Shown here in pieces: positions 325 through 38,619 of a DNA stretch of 44,859 nucleotides. The stretch's first letter is position 1, and every line of letters starts with the position of its first letter. Made by a program: the position numbers and the translations under genes. Source of the DNA: a phage; the sequence record PX290280.1. One strand, written 5' to 3'. Under the pieces are notes generated by a model. The model was not told the DNA's origin. It made no database searches and worked only from the letters and a program-made list of their open reading frames with translations.

Positions 325-340
325 GTCTAACATGTGAGAC
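325..340. repeat. Degenerate copy of the 16-bp palindrome (gtctaacatgtgagac)
   Basis: One mismatch relative to the GTCTCACATGTGAGAC palindrome found at six other sites. Confidence 0.5.
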
Positions 341-2286: not shown

Positions 2287-2400
2287 ATGGAAAGGCAATA
2301 TAACTTCATCTTCTCAGACGGTGTAACCCTGAAATGTTCCTTACGATTTGCGCAGATTCGTGAGGAAGTGCTAGGTACTACATACAAACTATTTAGCTGA
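2287..2400 (+). CDS. Hypothetical small protein (37 aa)
   Basis: GAGGAA ribosome-binding site directly after the ocr stop codon. Confidence 0.4.
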   Translation: MERQYNFIFSDGVTLKCSLRFAQIREEVLGTTYKLFS

Positions 2401-2415
2401 CACTATAAGAGAAGG
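2391..2415 (+). promoter_or_regulatory. Degenerate phage-promoter-like sequence (ATTTAGCTGACACTATAAGAGAAGG)
   Basis: Matches the phage promoter core but has an extra A before the initiating G; upstream of the RNAP gene. Confidence 0.35.
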
Positions 2416-2476: not shown

Positions 2477-2662
2477 ATGAAAACCTTGATTGGATGCTTC
2501 TTGTTGGCTTCTCTTGCTCTGGCATTTACCGCTAAAGCTGGTTATGACGCTTATAAAGTAGAACAAGCCCAGCAAGACTGGGCCAAAAAGTTCAACTTGT
2601 GCAGCAAGAGCAACACCTACGAGTACTGCAACAAAACACTAAGACACTTATGGAAAGAGTAA
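2477..2662 (+). CDS. Small secreted protein (61 aa) with a signal peptide
   Basis: N-terminus MKTLIGCFLLASLALAFTAKA-GYD looks like a Sec signal peptide with an AKA cleavage site; mature part carries two Cys; AGGAG ribosome-binding site. Confidence 0.6.
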   Translation: MKTLIGCFLLASLALAFTAKAGYDAYKVEQAQQDWAKKFNLCSKSNTYEYCNKTLRHLWKE

Positions 2663-2725
2663 CTAGCCTATAGCCTACCTGAGTGGGCTATGTGATATTT
2701 ACTTACACTATATAAGGTGATTACT

Positions 2726-3610
2726 ATGACTACTGAAAACACCCTCGTGTCTGTCCGTGAAGCTGCAACCGCTGAAATCAAGCAACATTTAGACAATATC
2801 GGCACTTCTTACATCAAAGTTGGCGCTTGTCTGAATGAATTACGCGGTGATTTCGAAGGTCAAAAAGACTTTTTAGCTTATGTAGAATCAGAGTTCGGCA
2901 TCAAGAAGGCACAATGCTACAAGCTGATGAGTGTAGCCCGTGTCTTTGAAGGAGACGAACGCTTTAAAGGTGTGGCTATGCGTGTAATGCTGGCGCTTGT
3001 TCCTTTCGCTGATGAAAATATAATCATGGAGAAGGCCGCAGAACTCGCCGCAGCTGGCAAGCTGGACACTAATGCCGTAAACGCCCTGATTGAACCTAAG
3101 AAAGAGATAAAGACTGAAACGGTACAATCTAAGGCTGTGGCGGTAAAACCGCAGGAGAACGCGACTAAGGCCGCAGAATCACAGGAAATGCAAGCGCCGC
3201 AGGTAGTGACACCCGCGAGCGAGCAGGAGGCCGACGAATCAGCACCATGGGAAGAGGAAAGCAAGCCGGAAGCGCCAAAGGTAGCGCCGCTGGATAACAC
3301 GGCTAATACCGAAAACGCCGCTATGGCTAGCCTCTTAGCACAAATTAAGGCACTGACTGAGCAATTACAGGCAGCTAATGACCGCATCGCCTCCTTAAGT
3401 AGCGCACGCGAAAGCAAGAAGGCAGCCGCACCTATGCTGCCGCAATTCAAATCTTCCTGCTTCTATGCTCGCTTAGGTTTAAGCGCTGAGGAGGCAACGA
3501 AGAAAACAGCAGTTAACAAGGCACGCCGCGAACTGGTTAAGCTAGGCTATGGTGAAGGCCATGAAGCATGGCCCTTAATCTCTGAGGCAGTAGAAGAGTT
3601 GACTAAGTAA
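2726..3610 (+). CDS. Early protein with a KfrA/DUF3102-like N-terminal domain and an Ala/Glu/Lys-rich coiled-coil tail
   Basis: ATG 2726 with AAGGTGA ribosome-binding site (the track's GTG at 2717 is less likely). N-terminal FLAYVESEFGIKKAQCYKLMSVARVF resembles a DNA-binding domain; C-terminal half is low-complexity coiled coil. Confidence 0.6.
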   Translation: MTTENTLVSVREAATAEIKQHLDNIGTSYIKVGACLNELRGDFEGQKDFLAYVESEFGIKKAQCYKLMSVARVFEGDERFKGVAMRVMLALVPFADENIIMEKAAELAAAGKLDTNAVNALIEPKKEIKTETVQSKAVAVKPQENATKAAESQEMQAPQVVTPASEQEADESAPWEEESKPEAPKVAPLDNTANTENAAMASLLAQIKALTEQLQAANDRIASLSSARESKKAAAPMLPQFKSSCFYARLGLSAEEATKKTAVNKARRELVKLGYGEGHEAWPLISEAVEELTK

Positions 3611-3673
3611 CCTTATCGGTGGCATCTTCTTAGGTGTCACCTATTAAGGTTTCTTTCACTAGGAGTAAACAAG

Positions 3674-6301
3674 ATGCAAGACCTACACGCTATTCAACTT
3701 CAACTTGAAGAAGAAATGTTTAACGGCGGTATCCGTCGCTTTGAAGCGGACCAACAACGCCAGATTGCATCCGGTAATGAATCAGACACGGCATGGAATC
3801 GCCGCTTATTGTCCGAACTAATCGCACCTATGGCGGAAGGTATTCAGGCTTACAAGGAAGAATACGAAGGCAAGAGAGGTCGTGCACCACGTGCATTAGC
3901 TTTCATTAACTGCGTAGGAAACGAAGTGGCAGCATATATCACCATGAAAATCGTTATGGATATGCTGAATACAGACGTTACCTTACAAGCAATCGCTATG
4001 AATGTAGCGGACCGCATCGAAGACCAAGTACGTTTTAGCAAGCTGGAAGGTCACGCAGCTAAGTACTTTGAGAAAGTGAAGAAGTCACTTAAGGCTAGCA
4101 AGACTAAATCTTATCGTCATGCGCACAACGTAGCGGTAGTAGCTGAGAAATCTGTTGCTGACCGTGACGCGGATTTCTCCCGTTGGGAGGCATGGCCTAA
4201 AGACACCTTGCTGCAAATCGGTATGACCTTGCTCGAAATATTGGAGAATAGTGTATTCTTCAATGGTCAACCTGTCTTCCTTCGTACCTTGCGCACTAAC
4301 GGCGGAAAGCATGGTGTTTACTATTTACAGACCAGTGAACATGTTGGAGAGTGGATAACTGCATTTAAGGAACATGTAGCGCAGCTCAGCCCTGCCTATG
4401 CACCTTGCGTTATACCTCCCCGCCCTTGGGTATCACCTTTTAACGGTGGGTTTCATACTGAGAAAGTAGCAAGCCGTATTCGTCTGGTAAAAGGCAATCG
4501 TGAGCACGTCCGCAAGCTGACCAAAAAGCAAATGCCAGCCGTTTATAAGGCTGTTAACGCTTTGCAGGCAACTAAGTGGCAGGTTAATAAAGAGGTTTTA
4601 CAGGTTGTGGAGGACGTTATACGTCTAGACCTCGGCTATGGTGTGCCTTCCTTTAAACCACTCATCGACCGTGAGAACAAGCCAGCTAATCCAGTGCCGT
4701 TAGAGTTCCAGCACCTGCGAGGCCGTGAACTTAAAGAGATGCTAACGCCGGAACAATGGCAAGCCTTCATCAACTGGAAAGGCGAATGTACCAAGCTGTA
4801 TACCGCTGAAACTAAGCGCGGCAGCAAATCGGCGGCGACCGTCCGCATGGTTGGGCAGGCACGTAAATACAGCCAGTTTGACGCCATCTACTTCGTGTAT
4901 GCACTGGACAGCCGCAGCCGCGTCTACGCGCAATCTAGCACGCTCTCTCCGCAATCAAACGACTTAGGCAAGGCATTGCTCCGTTTTACCGAAGGGCAGC
5001 GTCTTGATAGCGCTGAGGCGCTTAAGTGGTTTTTGGTGAACGGGGCTAATAACTGGGGTTGGGATAAGAAAACTTTTGACGTGCGCACCGCTAACGTGCT
5101 GGATAGTGAATTTCAAGACATGTGCCGCGACATTGCAGCGGATCCGCTTACCTTCACTCAATGGGTAAATGCCGACTCCCCTTACGGCTTCCTTGCATGG
5201 TGCTTTGAATATGCGCGTTATCTGGATGCACTGGATGAAGGCACGCAAGACCAATTCATGACGCACCTCCCAGTCCATCAAGATGGTAGTTGCTCTGGTA
5301 TCCAGCACTATAGCGCGATGTTACGCGATGCAGTAGGTGCGAAAGCGGTAAACCTTAAGCCCTCTGACTCCCCTCAAGATATTTATGGTGCCGTTGCGCA
5401 GGTAGTAATTCAGAAGAATTATGCATACATGAATGCAGAGGATGCGGAAACCTTCACTTCTGGCAGCGTGACTTTAACAGGTGCGGAACTGCGTAGCATG
5501 GCTAGTGCGTGGGATATGATAGGAATCACTCGCGGCCTGACCAAAAAGCCCGTAATGACACTACCTTATGGCAGCACACGTCTAACCTGCCGTGAGTCAG
5601 TGATTGATTATATCGTTGATTTAGAAGAAAAAGAGGCCCAACGGGCTATTGCGGAAGGGCGTACCGCCAACCCTGTACATCCTTTTGATAATGACCGTAA
5701 GGACAGCCTGACACCTAGCGCAGCTTATAACTATATGACAGCTTTAATCTGGCCTTCTATTTCGGAAGTGGTTAAAGCTCCTATAGTGGCAATGAAAATG
5801 ATTCGTCAGCTTGCACGTTTCGCAGCTAAAAGAAACGAAGGCTTAGAATATCCCTTACCAACTGGCTTCATCTTGCAACAAAAGATAATGGCTACCGATA
5901 TGCTCCGCGTATCCACTTGCTTGATGGGTGAAATCAAGATGAGTCTCCAGATTGAAACAGATGTAGTTGATGAAACGGCAATGATGGGTGCGGCTGCTCC
6001 TAACTTCGTCCATGGTCACGATGCTAGCCACCTGATTCTGACTGTATGTGACCTAGTGGATAAAGGTATTACATCCATTGCAGTCATCCATGATTCTTTC
6101 GGTACTCATGCAGGACGTACCGCAGACCTGCGGGATAGCTTAAGGGAAGAAATGGTTAAGATGTATCAAAACCATAATGCCCTGCAAAACCTGCTAGATG
6201 TGCACGAAGAGCGTTGGTTAGTAGACACCGGAATCCAAGTACCAGAGCAAGGAGAGTTTGACCTTAACGAAATCTTAGTTTCAGACTATTGTTTCGCATA
6301 A
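3674..6301 (+). CDS. Single-subunit DNA-directed RNA polymerase (SP6-type)
   Basis: 875 aa; N-terminus [32 protein letters not shown] and much of the body match SP6 RNA polymerase as recalled; T7-RNAP-family segments [18 protein letters not shown] and IHDSFGTHA are present. Confidence 0.95.
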
Positions 6302-6308
6302 TATTAAT

Positions 6309-6340
6309 AGGCCATTCCTTAGGGAGTGGCCTTTTTCTTT
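6309..6340 (+). terminator. Intrinsic-type terminator after the RNAP gene
   Basis: 10-bp stem aggccattcc / ggagtggcct with a 4-nt loop, followed by TTTTTCTTT. Confidence 0.6.
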
Positions 6341-6374: not shown

Positions 6375-6390
6375 GTCTCACATGTGAGAC
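6375..6390. repeat. 16-bp palindrome GTCTCACATGTGAGAC
   Basis: Perfect inverted repeat, ending 2 nt before the phage promoter at 6393. Confidence 0.8.
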
Positions 6391-6392
6391 TT

Positions 6393-6415
6393 ATTTACCG
6401 GACACTATAGGATAG
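6393..6415 (+). promoter_or_regulatory. Phage RNAP promoter (ATTTACCGGACACTATAGGATAG)
   Basis: Matches the 23-nt consensus shared by 12 sites. Confidence 0.7.
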
Positions 6416-6419
6416 CCGT

Positions 6420-6530
6420 CGGAGACGGGAAAGAAAGGGAAGATAAAGGATATAAAGGAAGTAATAGGTATTAAAGGTTATATAGGTTATCTAGGAATAC
6501 CTAGGAATACCTATTACCTTCTTCCTTCCT
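6420..6530. other. AT-rich iteron-like region between two phage promoters (candidate primary replication origin)
   Basis: Reiterated ATAAAGGA / ATAGGT motifs and a tandem CTAGGAATAC x2 (6491-6510), flanked by promoters at 6393 and 6587; same position as the T7 primary origin. Confidence 0.4.
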
Positions 6531-6565
6531 CTTATTACCACTTAGAGGAAGGGCAGACCTAGGTT

Positions 6566-6581
6566 GTCTCACATGTGAGAC
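6566..6581. repeat. 16-bp palindrome GTCTCACATGTGAGAC
   Basis: Perfect copy, ending 5 nt before the promoter at 6587; preceded by AAGGGCAGACCTAGGTT, which recurs at 44438-44454. Confidence 0.8.
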
Positions 6582-6586
6582 TTCGT

Positions 6587-6609
6587 ATTTACCGGACAGT
6601 ATAGATAAG
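6587..6609 (+). promoter_or_regulatory. Phage RNAP promoter variant (ATTTACCGGACAGTATAGATAAG)
   Basis: Consensus match with a C-to-G change in the core (GACAGTATAG). Confidence 0.55.
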
Positions 6610-6636
6610 ACTAACTCACTTTGGAGATTTTTAACC

Positions 6637-6765
6637 ATGCGTAACTTTGAGAAGATGACCCGTAAAGCTAACCGTTTTGACACGGAAGAAGGGCAGACGA
6701 AAGGCAAGAAGCTGAATAAACCTGTCCGTGACCGTGCATCTAAACGCGCTGCGTGGGAGTTCTAA
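6637..6765 (+). CDS. Hypothetical small basic protein (42 aa)
   Basis: GGAGA ribosome-binding site; immediately upstream of the primase gene. Confidence 0.45.
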   Translation: MRNFEKMTRKANRFDTEEGQTKGKKLNKPVRDRASKRAAWEF

Positions 6766-6768
6766 GTT

Positions 6769-8757
6769 ATGGCTATTATTCAGAATGTACCGTGTCCTGC
6801 CTGTCAAAAGAATGGACATGATATTACTGGCAACCATCTTATGATATTTGAGGATGGCGCTGGTTACTGTAACCGTGGTCACTTCCATGATAACGGCAAG
6901 CCTTATTACCATAAGCCAGAGGGTGGCATCGAGATAACCGAATTACCTATTACTGGCAATATCAAATATACACCTTCTCAGTTTAAAGAGATGGAGAAGG
7001 AAGGGAAGATTAGCGACCCTAAGCTACGCGCCATCGCACTTGGTGGTATGCGTATGAAAGACCGTTGGGAGGTCATGAATGAGCAAGAAAGGGCAGAACA
7101 AGAAGCAGAGTGGAAACTTGATGTTGAATGGTTCCTCACGCTTAAGCGTAAGAACCTTGTATCCCGTCACATTCGAGGTGACATCGCAGCAATGTACGAT
7201 GTGCGCGTTGGACACGATGAAGAGGGAAGAGTCAACCGTCACTATTATCCACGATATGAAAAGGGTGTGCTTGTTGGAGCAAAATGCCGGACGTTGCCGA
7301 AGGATTTTAAGTTCGGACACCTAGGTAAACTCTTTGGTATGCAAGACCTTTTCGGTATGAACACTTTGTCTCACGTGTTAGACAAGGGAAGACGAAAGGA
7401 TTGCTTGCTTATTGTGGGCGGCGAACTGGATGCACTAGCAGCACAGCAGATGCTCCTTGATTCTGCCAAGGGTACTAAGTGGGAAGGCCAGCCTTACCAT
7501 GTATGGTCTGTCAATAAAGGTGAGTCTTGCCTTGAAGAGATAGTGCAGAGCCGTGAGCATATCGCCCAATTCAAGAAGATTATATGGGGTTTTGATGGAG
7601 ATGAGGTGGGGCAGAAGCAGAACCAACAAGCTGCTCGCCTGTTTCCTGGCAAATCCTACATCCTCGAATACCCCTCTGGTTGCAAAGATGCTAACAAGGC
7701 ATTGATGGCTGGCAAGGCTAAAGAATTTGTGGATGCTTGGTTTAATGCAAAGTCATCTGATGAAGTCTTTGGTAGCCAGATTAAATCTATCGCATCTCAA
7801 AGGGATAAGCTCAAGGCTGCACGTCCAGAGCAAGGACTATCATGGCCTTGGCCTAAGCTGAACAAGGTAACGCTGGGTATTCGTAAGAACCAGCTTATCA
7901 TTATAGGTGCAGGCTCTGGTGTAGGTAAGACTGAGTTCCTTCGTGAAGTTGTTAAGCACCTCATTGAAGAACACGGTGAATCTGTAGGCATCATTTCTAC
8001 AGAAGACCCAATGGTCAAGGTGTCCCGTGCTTTTATCGGTAAGTGGATTGATAAGCGTATTGAGTTACCACCAACCAACGACCCGAAAGAAGACGGATAC
8101 CGTGAGGTGTTCGATTACACCGAGGAAGAAGCTAACGCTGCCATTGATTATGTGGCTGATACAGGAAAGCTATTTGTGGCTGACCTAGAAGGCGACTATT
8201 CGATGGAGAAGGTAGAGCAAACTTGCCTAGAGTTTGAGGCTATGGGAATTTCTAATATCATCATTGATAACTTAACGGGGATTAAATTAGATGAGCGTGC
8301 TTTTGGTGGGAAGGTTGGTGCACTTGATGAATGCGTCAAACGAATTGGTACTATCAAAGACCGACATGCGGTTACGATTTTCCTTGTCTCTCACCTTACA
8401 CGTCCTCCGGCAAACCGTACCCAACACGAAGAAGGTGGCGAAGTTATCCTTTCTGACTTCCGAGGCTCAGGCGCTATCGGATTCTGGGCATCTTACGCCT
8501 TGGGGATTGAGCGTAATACAAGAGCTGAAACGCTTGATGAAAGGACTACCACGTACATCTCTTGTGTCAAAGACCGCGACCAAGGTATCTACACAGGAAC
8601 CAAAGTCATGCTCAAGGGTGACATTCAGACCGGACGCTTGAGAGAACCACAAGCTAGAACAAGGTCGTTTGATACAGGCGAAGCAAGGCAACAAGAAGTA
8701 CCGGATTTACCGGACACTATAGAAGAGACAACATTTGACGATGAACAGGAGTTTTAA
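6769..8757 (+). CDS. DNA primase/helicase (T7 gp4-like)
   Basis: N-terminal zinc ribbon CPACQ...CNRGH, DnaB-type Walker A GAGSGVGKTE, and an acidic C-terminal tail ending DDEQEF. Confidence 0.9.
   Translation: MAIIQNVPCPACQKNGHDITGNHLMIFEDGAGYCNRGHFHDNGKPYYHKPEGGIEITELPITGNIKYTPSQFKEMEKEGKISDPKLRAIALGGMRMKDRWEVMNEQERAEQEAEWKLDVEWFLTLKRKNLVSRHIRGDIAAMYDVRVGHDEEGRVNRHYYPRYEKGVLVGAKCRTLPKDFKFGHLGKLFGMQDLFGMNTLSHVLDKGRRKDCLLIVGGELDALAAQQMLLDSAKGTKWEGQPYHVWSVNKGESCLEEIVQSREHIAQFKKIIWGFDGDEVGQKQNQQAARLFPGKSYILEYPSGCKDANKALMAGKAKEFVDAWFNAKSSDEVFGSQIKSIASQRDKLKAARPEQGLSWPWPKLNKVTLGIRKNQLIIIGAGSGVGKTEFLREVVKHLIEEHGESVGIISTEDPMVKVSRAFIGKWIDKRIELPPTNDPKEDGYREVFDYTEEEANAAIDYVADTGKLFVADLEGDYSMEKVEQTCLEFEAMGISNIIIDNLTGIKLDERAFGGKVGALDECVKRIGTIKDRHAVTIFLVSHLTRPPANRTQHEEGGEVILSDFRGSGAIGFWASYALGIERNTRAETLDERTTTYISCVKDRDQGIYTGTKVMLKGDIQTGRLREPQARTRSFDTGEARQQEVPDLPDTIEETTFDDEQEF
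8705..8727 (+). promoter_or_regulatory. Phage RNAP promoter inside the 3' end of the primase/helicase gene
   Basis: ATTTACCGGACACTATAGAAGAG. Confidence 0.7.
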
Positions 8758-8931: not shown

Positions 8932-8955
8932 GCTTGTCTCACATGTGAGACAGGC
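8932..8955. repeat. Extended palindrome hairpin (gcttGTCTCACATGTGAGACaggc)
   Basis: Core palindrome plus flanking complementarity, followed by TCTTATT. Confidence 0.8.
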
Positions 8956-10114: not shown

Positions 10115-10138
10115 GGTTGTCTCACACGTGAGACAGCC
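10115..10138. repeat. Palindrome hairpin variant (ggtTGTCTCACACGTGAGACAgcc)
   Basis: CACGTG centre instead of CATG; followed by TTTCAT. Confidence 0.75.
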
Positions 10139-15299: not shown

Positions 15300-15315
15300 G
15301 TCTCACGTGTGAGAC
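15300..15315. repeat. Palindrome variant (GTCTCACGTGTGAGAC)
   Basis: Stem GTCTCAC / GTGAGAC, located between a stop codon and the promoter at 15331. Confidence 0.7.
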
Positions 15316-31841: not shown

Positions 31842-31863
31842 CTTGTCTCACATGTGAGACAGG
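31842..31863. repeat. Extended palindrome hairpin (cttGTCTCACATGTGAGACagg)
   Basis: Perfect core plus flanks, followed by TCTTTAT; between two internal virion protein genes. Confidence 0.8.
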
Positions 31864-38598: not shown

Positions 38599-38619
38599 AT
38601 ATATATATATATATATATA
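38599..38619. repeat. (AT)n dinucleotide microsatellite
   Basis: About ten uninterrupted AT units, followed at 38653-38672 by hairpin gggtgtac-tcct-gtacaccc. Confidence 0.7.

What the first reader, a model, noticed from the sequence alone, without database searches (positions are those of the whole stretch)
2726..3610. Early protein with a putative DNA-binding N-terminal domain and long Ala-rich coiled coil, just upstream of the RNAP gene
The N-terminal block FLAYVESEFGIKKAQCYKLMSVARVF resembles domains found at the N-terminus of plasmid KfrA-type proteins, which pair a DNA-binding head with a long alanine-rich helical tail. This protein has the same architecture and sits in the host-takeover position, so it may target host nucleoid or partition machinery.
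Basis: inference. Interest (0 to 1): 0.45.

Follow-up and report, generated by a model that had tools for sequence, protein, structure and literature searches.

The report
ParB-like head, J-like tail protein
A conserved, never-characterised early gene next to the RNA polymerase gene of K1E/K1-5/SP6-type phages encodes a protein with a probable DNA-binding head, a floppy acidic middle, a short zipper and a crippled chaperone-type "J-domain" tail; this points to an unexplored host-takeover adaptor, not to the plasmid KfrA-like protein first proposed.

Summary
The ORF is real: 2726-3610 (+), 294 aa, strong RBS, 64 nt upstream of the phage RNA polymerase gene. The window is a Vectrevirus (K1E/K1-5-like). 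The gene is K1-5 gp6 / SP6 gp7, "hypothetical" everywhere and PHROG 4571 (unknown function).

The KfrA idea fails. There is no KfrA_N match, and a genuine KfrA (R751) scores 0.3% probability in hhalign against the family profile.

The real architecture has five parts:
2. aa 126-190: a disordered acidic Ala/Pro/Glu linker carrying a conserved acidic-Pro-Trp/Phe-acidic motif.
3. aa 191-234: one helix with about four heptads, not a long coiled coil.
4. aa 235-243: a strongly conserved P-x-L-P-Q-F motif (L238 and F241 in every J-bearing member).
Family profiles hit only J-domains in the PDB (best E 1.5e-5). No member keeps the catalytic HPD triplet; here it reads YGE.

The J-like tail is the most conserved part. 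Synteny with the RNA polymerase gene holds down to about 33% identity.

Best reading: a dimeric, DNA-anchored early adaptor that engages a conserved host factor. The mechanism is inferred, not shown.

The parts
2714..2719 (+). Shine-Dalgarno AAGGTG, 6 nt before the ATG
   Evidence: Read directly from the sequence. It supports ATG 2726 over the in-frame GTG at 2717.
2726..3610 (+). CDS, 294 aa; orthologue of K1-5 gp6 / K1E gp6 / SP6 gp7; PHROG 4571
   Evidence: Nucleotide identity to Vectrevirus genomes is 94-98%. Protein identity is 66% to SP6 gp7.
2753..3091 (+). N-terminal all-helical domain (aa 10-122): remote DUF3102 relative with a ParB/KorB-type DNA-binding-domain fold
2861..2947 (+).
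   Evidence: Secondary structure. Conservation: mean identity of this stretch to the window protein is 60% among the 12 relatives at or above 35% overall identity.
3101..3295 (+). Disordered acidic Ala/Pro/Glu-rich linker (aa 126-190)
   Evidence: pLDDT is about 30. pI is 4.46. Mean identity to the window protein is only 14% among the 12 closest clusters.
3230..3259 (+). Conserved short linear motif in the linker: acidic run, Pro, Trp/Phe, acidic (here ADESAPWEEE, aa 169-178). Family consensus is D-D-x-[A/V/P]-P-[F/W]-D-T-G.
   Evidence: present in 38-39 of about 120 members, in an otherwise unalignable region.
3296..3427 (+). Single long helix (aa 191-234) with about four leucine-zipper-like heptads (a/d = M,L,I,L,L,A,I,L; aa about 200-226); presumed dimerisation element
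3428..3454 (+). Strongly conserved A-P-M-L-P-Q-F-K-S motif (aa 235-243) preceding the J-like domain. L238 and F241 are invariant in the 95 aligned J-bearing members; P236 is common but not invariant.
3455..3607 (+). J-like domain (aa 244-294): helix I 246-249, helix II 260-272 (basic face K265, R267, R268, K272), loop 273-281, helix III 282-293; no helix IV
3548..3556 (+). Y275-G276-E277, the position of the catalytic His-Pro-Asp of true J-domains
   Evidence: Inferred from the HMMER alignments plus my own residue-by-residue register. No family member has HPD.
2669..2692 (+). RNA hairpin just upstream of the gene (context)
   Evidence: -13.2 kcal/mol, z -2.75.
3609..3651 (+). Very stable RNA hairpin between this gene and the RNA polymerase gene (context). 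Premi's annotators placed a 'terminator' in the equivalent gap.
   Evidence: -21.7 kcal/mol, z -8.0..

Best explanation
The gene encodes a modular early phage protein that most likely acts as a dimeric, DNA-anchored adaptor during host takeover.

Shown by computation:
- A ParB/KorB-type helix-turn-helix head (a remote DUF3102 relative) without any ParB CTPase domain.
- A 65-residue disordered acidic tether carrying a conserved acidic-Pro-Trp/Phe-acidic peptide motif.
- A short zipper-like helix.
- A strongly conserved PxLPQF motif.
- A C-terminal domain descended from the J-domain that has lost the His-Pro-Asp triplet in every family member.

Inferred:
- The zipper pairs two heads, so the protein binds double-stranded DNA, phage or host; the target is unknown.
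- The flexible tether presents the J-like domain and the linear motifs to a host partner that is conserved across Enterobacterales, Vibrio and Pseudomonas. The Hsp70 system is the most plausible class: either DnaK itself through the retained basic helix II, or a host J-protein in the manner of the Tim16-Tim14 pair.
- Without HPD it cannot act as a normal co-chaperone, so it would tether, sequester or modulate rather than stimulate ATP hydrolysis.

The gene sits in the genomic slot that gene 0.7 (a kinase plus a nucleic-acid-binding shut-off domain) occupies in T7-type phages, which fits a takeover role.
For: - Gene and family.
- Domain boundaries and confidence: full model; N-domain, pLDDT 86, pTM 0.75.
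- Head, family: DUF3102 matches 39 of 120 relatives at consistent profile positions, and two relatives score above the Pfam cut-off.
- Head, conservation: the helix-turn-helix is the best-conserved part of the head.
- Tail. There is no HPD in any of about 109 tails.
- The basic helix II is retained; R268 is nearly invariant.
- The tail is the most conserved module: 68% mean identity to the window protein, against 53% for the head and 14% for the linker, among the 12 closest clusters. It is almost unchanged between E. coli, Salmonella and Proteus phages. This argues for a conserved host target.
- Linker motif.
- Conserved early position upstream of the RNA polymerase gene, even at about 33% identity.
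- Precedents: a phage J-protein that hijacks DnaK early in infection (Rki of RB43, PMC3486835), and a DNA-binding takeover protein in the same slot of T7-type phages (PMC12345140).
Against: - No experiment bears on this gene; six literature searches found nothing.
- The ParB-like relation is fold-level only. Sequence profiles find neither KorB (hhalign 0.2%) nor any PDB relative.
- The head is acidic overall (pI 5.06).
- No DNA target was found.
- From established knowledge of J-domains, loss of HPD normally abolishes productive Hsp70 interaction, so the partner may not be DnaK at all.
- The AlphaFold models rest on a shallow alignment of 31 sequences.
- Pfam scores for DUF3102 and DnaJ are mostly just below the curated cut-offs.
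Confidence: 0.4

Rival explanations
1. KorB-like transcriptional regulator. The ParB-type head binds specific operators on the phage or host genome and represses or times transcription, for example host shut-off in place of T7 gp0.7 or control of the adjacent RNA polymerase gene. The J-like domain would be only a structural or oligomerisation module.
Against: The tail, not the head, is under the strongest constraint, which is odd for a mere scaffold. The only repeated palindrome in the genome behaves as an RNA hairpin and does not co-vary with the recognition helix. No operator was found.
Confidence: 0.2
2. DnaK hijacker in the manner of Rki. Despite lacking HPD, the J-like domain, perhaps with the basic-flanked PMLPQF peptide acting as a substrate-like bait, binds DnaK directly and blocks or redirects it, for example by stabilising sigma-32. 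DNA binding would be secondary or absent.
For: Homology to the J-domain. Helix II keeps its basic residues. Extreme conservation across phages of different hosts. Rki of RB43 is an early, toxic, DnaK-specific phage J-protein (PMC3486835).
Against: All roughly 109 members lack HPD. In characterised J-proteins the His of HPD is indispensable (established knowledge); Rki itself loses its toxicity when its J-domain is mutated (PMC3486835). Helix IV is absent.
Confidence: 0.15
3. Protein-only adaptor or assembly factor. The N-domain is a Raf1-alpha-like protein-binding bundle rather than a DNA binder, and the protein scaffolds or chaperones another protein, possibly the neighbouring RNA polymerase.
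Confidence: 0.1
4. One reading: a KfrA-type protein (DNA-binding head plus long alanine-rich coiled coil) that targets the host nucleoid or partition machinery.
For: Only the superficial order of parts, a helical DNA-binding-like head followed by Ala-rich sequence (16% Ala overall).
Against: No KfrA_N match. hhalign gives 0.3% probability against authentic KfrA. The 'tail' is mostly disordered with one short zipper. The context is a phage early operon. No plasmid homologue was found by tblastn.
Confidence: 0.03

Closest known systems
KorB / ParB / Spo0J / SopB / VirB DNA-binding domains (PDB 1r71, 8qa8, 1vz0, 6s6h, 3mky, 3vwb)
   Different: No detectable sequence similarity. No N-terminal ParB/Srx CTPase domain. 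No ParA partner and no identified parS-like site. The context is a lytic-phage early gene.
Pfam DUF3102 (PF11300), an uncharacterised family
   Same: The HTH-containing core (profile positions about 20-75) matches 39 of 120 family members. The shared motif is G-x-L-L...F-L-x-W...F-G-x-x-K-x-x-x-Y-x-L-M-x-V.
   Different: The window protein itself does not reach any reportable score. Most relatives are just under the cut-off. The relatives that score above the DUF3102 cut-off (P0240, P0243) lack the J-like tail.
Rki (gene 057w) of T4-like phage RB43, the only characterised phage J-domain protein (PMC3486835)
   Same: An early-expressed phage protein carrying a J-type domain. It sets the precedent that phages manipulate the DnaK system.
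   Different: Rki has a functional J-domain and depends on it. This family has none with HPD and adds a DNA-binding-type head. No sequence relationship beyond the J fold was tested.
Tim16/Pam16 (J-like) paired with Tim14/Pam18 (PDB 2guz)
   Different: Mitochondrial import-motor components. No sequence-level relationship was shown.
KfrA of IncP-1 plasmids (PF11740 KfrA_N)
   Same: Loosely, an N-terminal helical nucleic-acid-binding-type head followed by Ala-rich sequence.
   Different: Not homologous. KfrA's long uninterrupted coiled coil (from the literature, my own knowledge) is replaced here by a disordered linker, a four-heptad helix and a J-like domain.
T7 gp0.7 / JSS1_004 (PMC12345140)
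   Same: Same genomic slot: the last sizeable early gene before the RNA polymerase gene. It is a two-module takeover protein with a nucleic-acid-binding part.
   Different: gp0.7 is a Ser/Thr kinase plus a basic shut-off domain. No kinase is present here and no homology is implied.
E. coli CbpA and polyomavirus large T antigen (my own knowledge, not tested here)
   Same: Proteins that combine a J-domain with DNA binding.
   Different: Both have functional HPD J-domains at the N-terminus. The domain order and the DNA-binding folds are different.

Membership tests
KfrA (IncP plasmid DNA-binding protein) | KfrA_N domain (PF11740) at the N-terminus | tested here: not met
   No hit at E <= 10. Not among the 25 families listed as matched by most of 120 relatives. 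Authentic R751 KfrA (KfrA_N E 3.9e-27) against the family profile gives hhalign probability 0.3%.
KfrA (IncP plasmid DNA-binding protein) | Long, uninterrupted alanine-rich alpha-helical coiled-coil tail | tested here: not met
   AF2 gives 65 disordered residues, then one 44-residue helix with about 4 heptads, then a globular domain.
KfrA (IncP plasmid DNA-binding protein) | Plasmid context (kfrA-kfrB-kfrC next to korA/incC/korB) | tested here: not met
   The gene lies in a lytic-phage early operon between ocr and the RNA polymerase gene; compare the R751 locus. There is no plasmid homologue.
DUF3102 (PF11300) | HMM score at or above the Pfam gathering cut-off (24.4 bits) | tested here: inconclusive
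   The window protein gives no reportable score. 39 of 120 relatives match at E < 0.01. P0240 (29.0 bits) and P0243 (25.0 bits) are above the cut-off. P0253, which is 46% identical to the window protein, scores 23.7 bits, just below. The homology is transitive.
ParB/KorB superfamily | ParB-type HTH DNA-binding-domain fold | tested here: met
ParB/KorB superfamily | Sequence-profile membership (HTH_ParB, KorB or ParB_N Pfam families) | tested here: not met
   No such Pfam hit. The profile finds no PDB relative. hhalign against R751 KorB gives 0.2%.
ParB/KorB superfamily | N-terminal ParB/Srx CTP-binding domain | tested here: not met
   The fold starts at aa 10 with the HTH domain and leaves no room for it. 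There is no ParB_N hit.
ParB/KorB superfamily | Cognate palindromic binding sites (parS / OB-like) on the replicon | tested here: inconclusive
   A 16-bp palindrome occurs 8 times. However, its flanks pair through G-U wobbles on the + strand, and its half-site does not co-vary with the recognition helix across genera.
J-domain proteins (PF00226) | J-domain homology (helices I-III with the L-G-hydrophobic and A-Y-R-x-L signatures) | tested here: met
J-domain proteins (PF00226) | His-Pro-Asp tripeptide between helices II and III | tested here: not met
   It is absent in all roughly 109 tails. This clade has G-Y-G-E-G-H; others have Y-T-P-E-T-N, Y-N-P-D-T-N, Y-T-A-A-T-N or F-N-A-K-T-C. The domain is therefore J-like, not a bona fide J-domain.
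J-domain proteins (PF00226) | Stimulation of Hsp70 (DnaK) ATPase | not testable with these tools
   This needs a biochemical assay.

The most novel reading that the evidence does not exclude
The protein is a DNA-tethered decoy hub. Two heads clamp it on DNA, while the flexible tether displays three baits:
- an internal mimic of the SSB C-terminal tail (family consensus D-D-x-[A/V/P]-P-F-D; one relative reads D-D-I-P-F, compared with my recollection of the E. coli SSB tail D-D-D-I-P-F);
- a basic-flanked PMLPQF peptide;
- an HPD-less J-like domain.

Together these would capture the host's SSB-interacting repair and replication proteins, or the DnaK/DnaJ machine, at or away from phage DNA. That would be a new class of phage takeover or anti-defence factor, used by SP6-type phages in place of the T7 gp0.7 kinase.
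Probability: 0.12. Interest if true: 0.8.

Novelty: new variant of a known kind. Interest (0 to 1): 0.5.

Why it matters
SP6/K1-5/K1E-type phages are workhorses: SP6 RNA polymerase is a standard tool and the K1 phages are therapy candidates. Yet their host-takeover functions are almost unknown, and they lack the gp0.7 kinase of T7.

This gene is the only sizeable early gene besides ocr and the polymerase. It is conserved next to the polymerase gene from Escherichia phages to Vibrio and Pseudomonas phages, and it is annotated "hypothetical" or wrongly ("andolysin", "endolysin", "VLTF-4").

Its head is ParB/KorB-like and its most constrained part is a J-domain that has lost HPD. That turns an anonymous ORF into concrete experiments on DNA binding and on DnaK/DnaJ/CbpA binding. 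It would also add a second, mechanistically different example of phage interference with the Hsp70 system. In addition, it gives the orphan Pfam family DUF3102 a structural assignment as a ParB-type HTH.

Tried and rejected
1. KfrA homology: rejected.

2. Plasmid relatives of the N-domain by tblastn: only four insignificant Streptomyces hits.

3. Sequence-level link of the head to solved structures or to KorB: none.

4. The 16-bp palindrome GTCTCACATGTGAGAC (8 copies, 0.24 expected) as a parS-like operator for the ParB-like head: not supported.
- Three copies extend into 13-bp stems through G-U wobbles, valid only as + strand RNA.
- SP6 carries a wobble variant and Premi a compensatory variant, the latter annotated as terminators.
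- Erwinia phiEa100 shares the window's half-site despite a more divergent recognition helix than SP6, which has a different half-site.

5. Phage promoters directly upstream of the gene: promoter-like sites with ACACTATA at 2400 and 2705 deviate from the window consensus at +1 and, for the second, in spacing. My ACTATA-based scan found no counterpart upstream of the gene in SP6 or Premi. The gene is therefore treated as early.

6. Defence or anti-defence libraries (PADLOC) and NCBIfam: nothing. All related PHROGs are of unknown function.

7. Literature: no paper on this gene or on DUF3102 function. JSS1_004 turned out to be a gp0.7 homologue, not this gene.

8. Widening the family with the search for homologous proteins gave mostly near-identical sequences, or only 9 hits when queried with the distant profile. 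The AF2 alignment is therefore shallow.

9. Genomic context of bacterial DUF3102 proteins: the alignment was too divergent to scan with, and a single-protein scan found nothing.

10. The afdb50 fold library was unavailable.

Full report
**What the window is.** A 1.1-kb query around the finding matches Vectrevirus genomes (K1E, K1-5, ACG-C91, mutPK1A2 and others) at 94-98% nucleotide identity. The window is therefore a K1E/K1-5-like member of Autographiviridae, subfamily Molineuxvirinae. The early region is laid out as follows:
- sigma-70-like promoters at 375 and 1209;
- several small ORFs;
- an Ocr DNA mimic at 1953-2282 (Pfam ocr, E 1.8e-30);
- a 61-aa ORF, then the finding's ORF;
- the 875-aa single-subunit RNA polymerase gene at 3674-6301;
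- a strong terminator at 6309-6332;
- the first consensus phage promoters and a gene 1.1 homologue.

**The observation.** It is a real gene.
- tblastn finds it in 214 phage records, 213 of them at full length. These span Escherichia, Salmonella (SP6 gp7, 66% identity), Klebsiella, Proteus, Erwinia, Pectobacterium, Vibrio, Pseudomonas and Marinomonas phages.
- An exhaustive HMMER search of 1.84 billion cluster representatives finds only 131 clusters.
- It is annotated "hypothetical" almost everywhere. A few labels ("andolysin", "endolysin", "late transcription factor VLTF-4") have no support from any profile library. It belongs to PHROG 4571, function unknown.
- The quoted block FLAYVESEFGIKKAQCYKLMSVARVF is aa 49-74.

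**Testing the KfrA interpretation.** Pfam finds no KfrA_N in the protein even at E <= 10, and KfrA_N is not among the 25 families listed as matched by most of 120 relatives. I fetched authentic KfrA from plasmid R751, which matches KfrA_N at E 3.9e-27. Compared with the family profile it gives an hhalign probability of 0.3%. tblastn of the N-domain against 72,556 plasmids gives nothing significant. The protein is not a KfrA.

**Anatomy.** AlphaFold2 was run on a 31-sequence alignment spanning 24-97% identity. It gives two confident globular parts, one long helix and one disordered segment:
- helices at 10-40, 46-57, 61-74, 85-94, 98-109 and 115-122 (pLDDT about 90);
- aa 126-190 with pLDDT about 30;
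- a helix at 191-234;
- a small helical domain at 239-293 (pLDDT about 90).

The "long Ala-rich coiled coil" is therefore mostly an acidic, Pro/Ala/Glu-rich disordered linker (pI 4.46), followed by a helix in which only about four heptads have a hydrophobic a/d core.

**The head.**
- Each of 120 diverse relatives was scanned against Pfam. DUF3102 matches 39 of them, always over the same profile positions (about 20-75). P0240 and P0243 score above the curated cut-off. P0253, which is 46% identical to the window protein, scores 23.7 bits against a cut-off of 24.4. The head is a remote DUF3102 relative.
- DUF3102 has no known function; it is mentioned in only 3 papers, each in passing (1-2 occurrences) and none on this family.
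- Sequence profiles find no solved relative.
- The most conserved stretch of the head maps to helix-turn-helix: helix 46-57, G58-I-K60, helix 61-74, with K61 nearly invariant.

**The tail.**
- Pfam DnaJ matches 12 of 120 relatives (best 1e-5).
- A profile of the whole family hits J-domains in the PDB (best 1.9e-5).
- A profile of the last ~60 residues hits 34 sequences at E < 0.1, and all 34 are J-domains. These include E. coli DnaJ and CbpA; the best E-value is 1.5e-5.
- The alignment places Y275-G276-E277 at the position of the His-Pro-Asp tripeptide. A census of about 109 tails shows that no member has HPD. This clade reads G-Y-G-E-G-H-E-A; others read H-Y-T-P-E-T-N, H-Y-N-P-D-T-N, I-Y-T-A-A-T-N or I-F-N-A-K-T-C.
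- Helix II keeps its basic face (K265, R267, R268, K272; R268 nearly invariant). There is no helix IV.
- A strongly conserved P-x-L-P-Q-F-x-S motif precedes the domain; L238 and F241 are invariant in the 95 aligned tails.

This is a J-like domain, not a functional J-domain in the canonical sense.

**Conservation pattern.** Among the 12 relative clusters at or above 35% overall identity, mean identity to the window protein is:

| Module | Identity |
|---|---|
| PxLPQF + J-like tail | 68% |
| Helix-turn-helix | 60% |
| Whole head | 53% |
| Zipper helix | 30% |
| Linker | 14% |

Between the E. coli, Salmonella and Proteus phage proteins the tail is almost unchanged. Inside the unalignable linker one short motif survives. 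It is an acidic run followed by [A/V/P]-P-[F/W]-[D/E], present in 38-39 of about 120 members (ADESAPWEEE here; consensus D-D-x-[A/V/P]-P-F-D-T-G). Its likeness to the C-terminal tip of bacterial SSB is my own recollection and is untested.

**Context.** The gene lies directly upstream of the RNA polymerase gene in SP6, Proteus phage Premi and Erwinia phiEa100. In Vibrio phage VEN one small ORF intervenes. In two metagenomic phages whose proteins are only 33-34% identical, it sits two to three small ORFs upstream of the polymerase gene, again after anti-restriction genes. In SP6 and Premi my ACTATA-based scan finds the first consensus-like phage promoter after the polymerase gene. In the window, the promoter-like sites with ACACTATA at 2400 and 2705 deviate from the consensus ATTTACTGGACACTATAGAAGG. 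The gene is thus early by position. It is bracketed by RNA hairpins, and the one at 3609-3651 is very stable (-21.7 kcal/mol, z -8.0). In T7-type phages this slot holds gene 0.7, a kinase fused to a nucleic-acid-binding shut-off domain (PMC12345140). No kinase-sized ORF exists in the early region here.

**A lead that did not hold.** The window contains eight copies of the palindrome GTCTCACATGTGAGAC, where 0.24 are expected. Several lie just upstream of phage promoters. A parS-like operator for a ParB-like head was an attractive idea, but the evidence goes the other way:
- Three copies extend to 13-bp stems through G-U pairs that work only in + strand RNA.
- SP6 has a syntenic wobble variant, GTCTAACATGTTGGAC.
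- Premi has a compensatory variant, TGTCCAAC...GTTGGACA, which its annotators call terminators.
- phiEa100 shares the window's half-site although its recognition helix is more divergent than that of SP6, whose half-site differs.

These are conserved RNA hairpins. They match no Rfam family.

**Mechanism.** What is shown is the architecture. What is inferred is the function. A zipper-paired pair of helix-turn-helix heads would bind duplex DNA. A long flexible acidic tether would present a J-like domain and two conserved peptide motifs to a partner. The extreme conservation of the tail across phages of different hosts implies that the partner is conserved.

The Hsp70 system is the most natural candidate class. 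The precedents are Rki of RB43, an early, toxic, DnaK-specific phage J-protein (PMC3486835), and the Tim16-Tim14 J-like/J pair. The universal loss of HPD means the protein cannot be an ordinary co-chaperone. Tethering, sequestration or inhibition is more likely.

I put 0.4 on this DNA-anchored adaptor reading. The rivals are:
- a KorB-like regulator in which the tail is only structural (0.2);
- a direct DnaK hijacker with little role for DNA (0.15);
- a Raf1-like protein-only scaffold, perhaps for the polymerase (0.1);
- the KfrA/partition model (0.03).

**Novelty and score.** The gene family is already in the databases, but it is anonymous. I found no paper on it in six literature searches; a seventh search turned up only the gp0.7 homologue JSS1_004. 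Each module belongs to a known kind. The combination, together with an entire phage family of HPD-less J-like domains, is a new variant. Interest is moderate (0.5): the result gives testable hypotheses about takeover in SP6-type phages, but everything about function is inference.

Noticed in passing
window 325-340, 6375-6390, 6566-6581, 7368-7383, 8936-8951, 10119-10134, 15300-15315, 31845-31860: Eight copies of the 16-bp palindrome GTCTCACATGTGAGAC (up to 2 mismatches; 0.24 expected by chance), mostly intergenic and several just upstream of phage promoters. Three extend to 13-bp RNA stems with G-U pairs (about -18 to -20 kcal/mol, z about -5.5). Syntenic variants with wobble or compensatory changes occur in SP6, Proteus phage Premi (annotated as terminators) and Erwinia phiEa100. 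There is no Rfam match. This is probably a conserved RNA processing or termination hairpin of Molineuxvirinae.
   Followed up: partly
window 3609-3651: A very stable hairpin (-21.7 kcal/mol, z -8.0) followed by a U-rich stretch, between the studied gene and the RNA polymerase gene. Premi's annotators placed a terminator in the same gap. It could be an attenuator or an RNase III site setting the polymerase dose, like R1 of T7.
   Followed up: partly
window 6394-6610: Two phage promoters lie about 190 bp apart, ACACTATA at 6402 and the variant ACAGTATA at about 6593. Each is preceded by the palindrome. They flank an AT-rich stretch with direct repeats (TAGGAATACCTAGGAATACC...), and a gene 1.1 homologue follows at 6637-6765. 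The layout resembles the phi1.1A/phi1.1B primary replication origin of T7.
   Followed up: no
window 2391-2412 and 2696-2717: Two phage-promoter-like sequences lie upstream of the studied gene. ATTTAGCTGACACTATAAGAG is close to the SP6-type promoters I found in the SP6 genome but has A at +1. ATTTACTTACACTATATAAGG is one base short and has T at +1. My ACTATA-based scan found no counterpart at this position in SP6 or Premi.
   Followed up: partly
GenBank records KY295893.1, NC_047806.1, NC_047807.1, MN384978.1, OQ818708.1 (hits H31, H34, H35, H40, H65): Orthologues of this gene are annotated 'late transcription factor VLTF-4', 'andolysin' or 'endolysin'. No profile library supports any of these names, so they look like propagated annotation errors.
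   Followed up: partly
relatives P0129-P0234 (e.g. P0147 aa 1-120, P0279-P0281): Many distant family members carry an extra 70-150-residue N-terminal helical extension that the Vectrevirus and SP6 proteins lack; its shared feature is a T-L-K-x-x-K motif. Its nature was not examined.
   Followed up: no
window 2477-2662: A 61-aa ORF immediately upstream of the studied gene starts with a hydrophobic, signal-peptide-like segment (MKTLIGCFLLASLALAFTAKA). It is conserved in position in SP6 (gene 6) and has no Pfam match.
   Followed up: no
L011 3528-3812 and L010 628-1044: The early regions of the distant phages that carry this gene also hold other anti-defence genes upstream of it: a Tad2-like protein in L011 and an S-AdoMet lyase in L010. 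Their position parallels that of ocr in the window.
   Followed up: no
window 38599-38619: A short (TA)n run produces a cluster of trivial palindromes.
   Followed up: no
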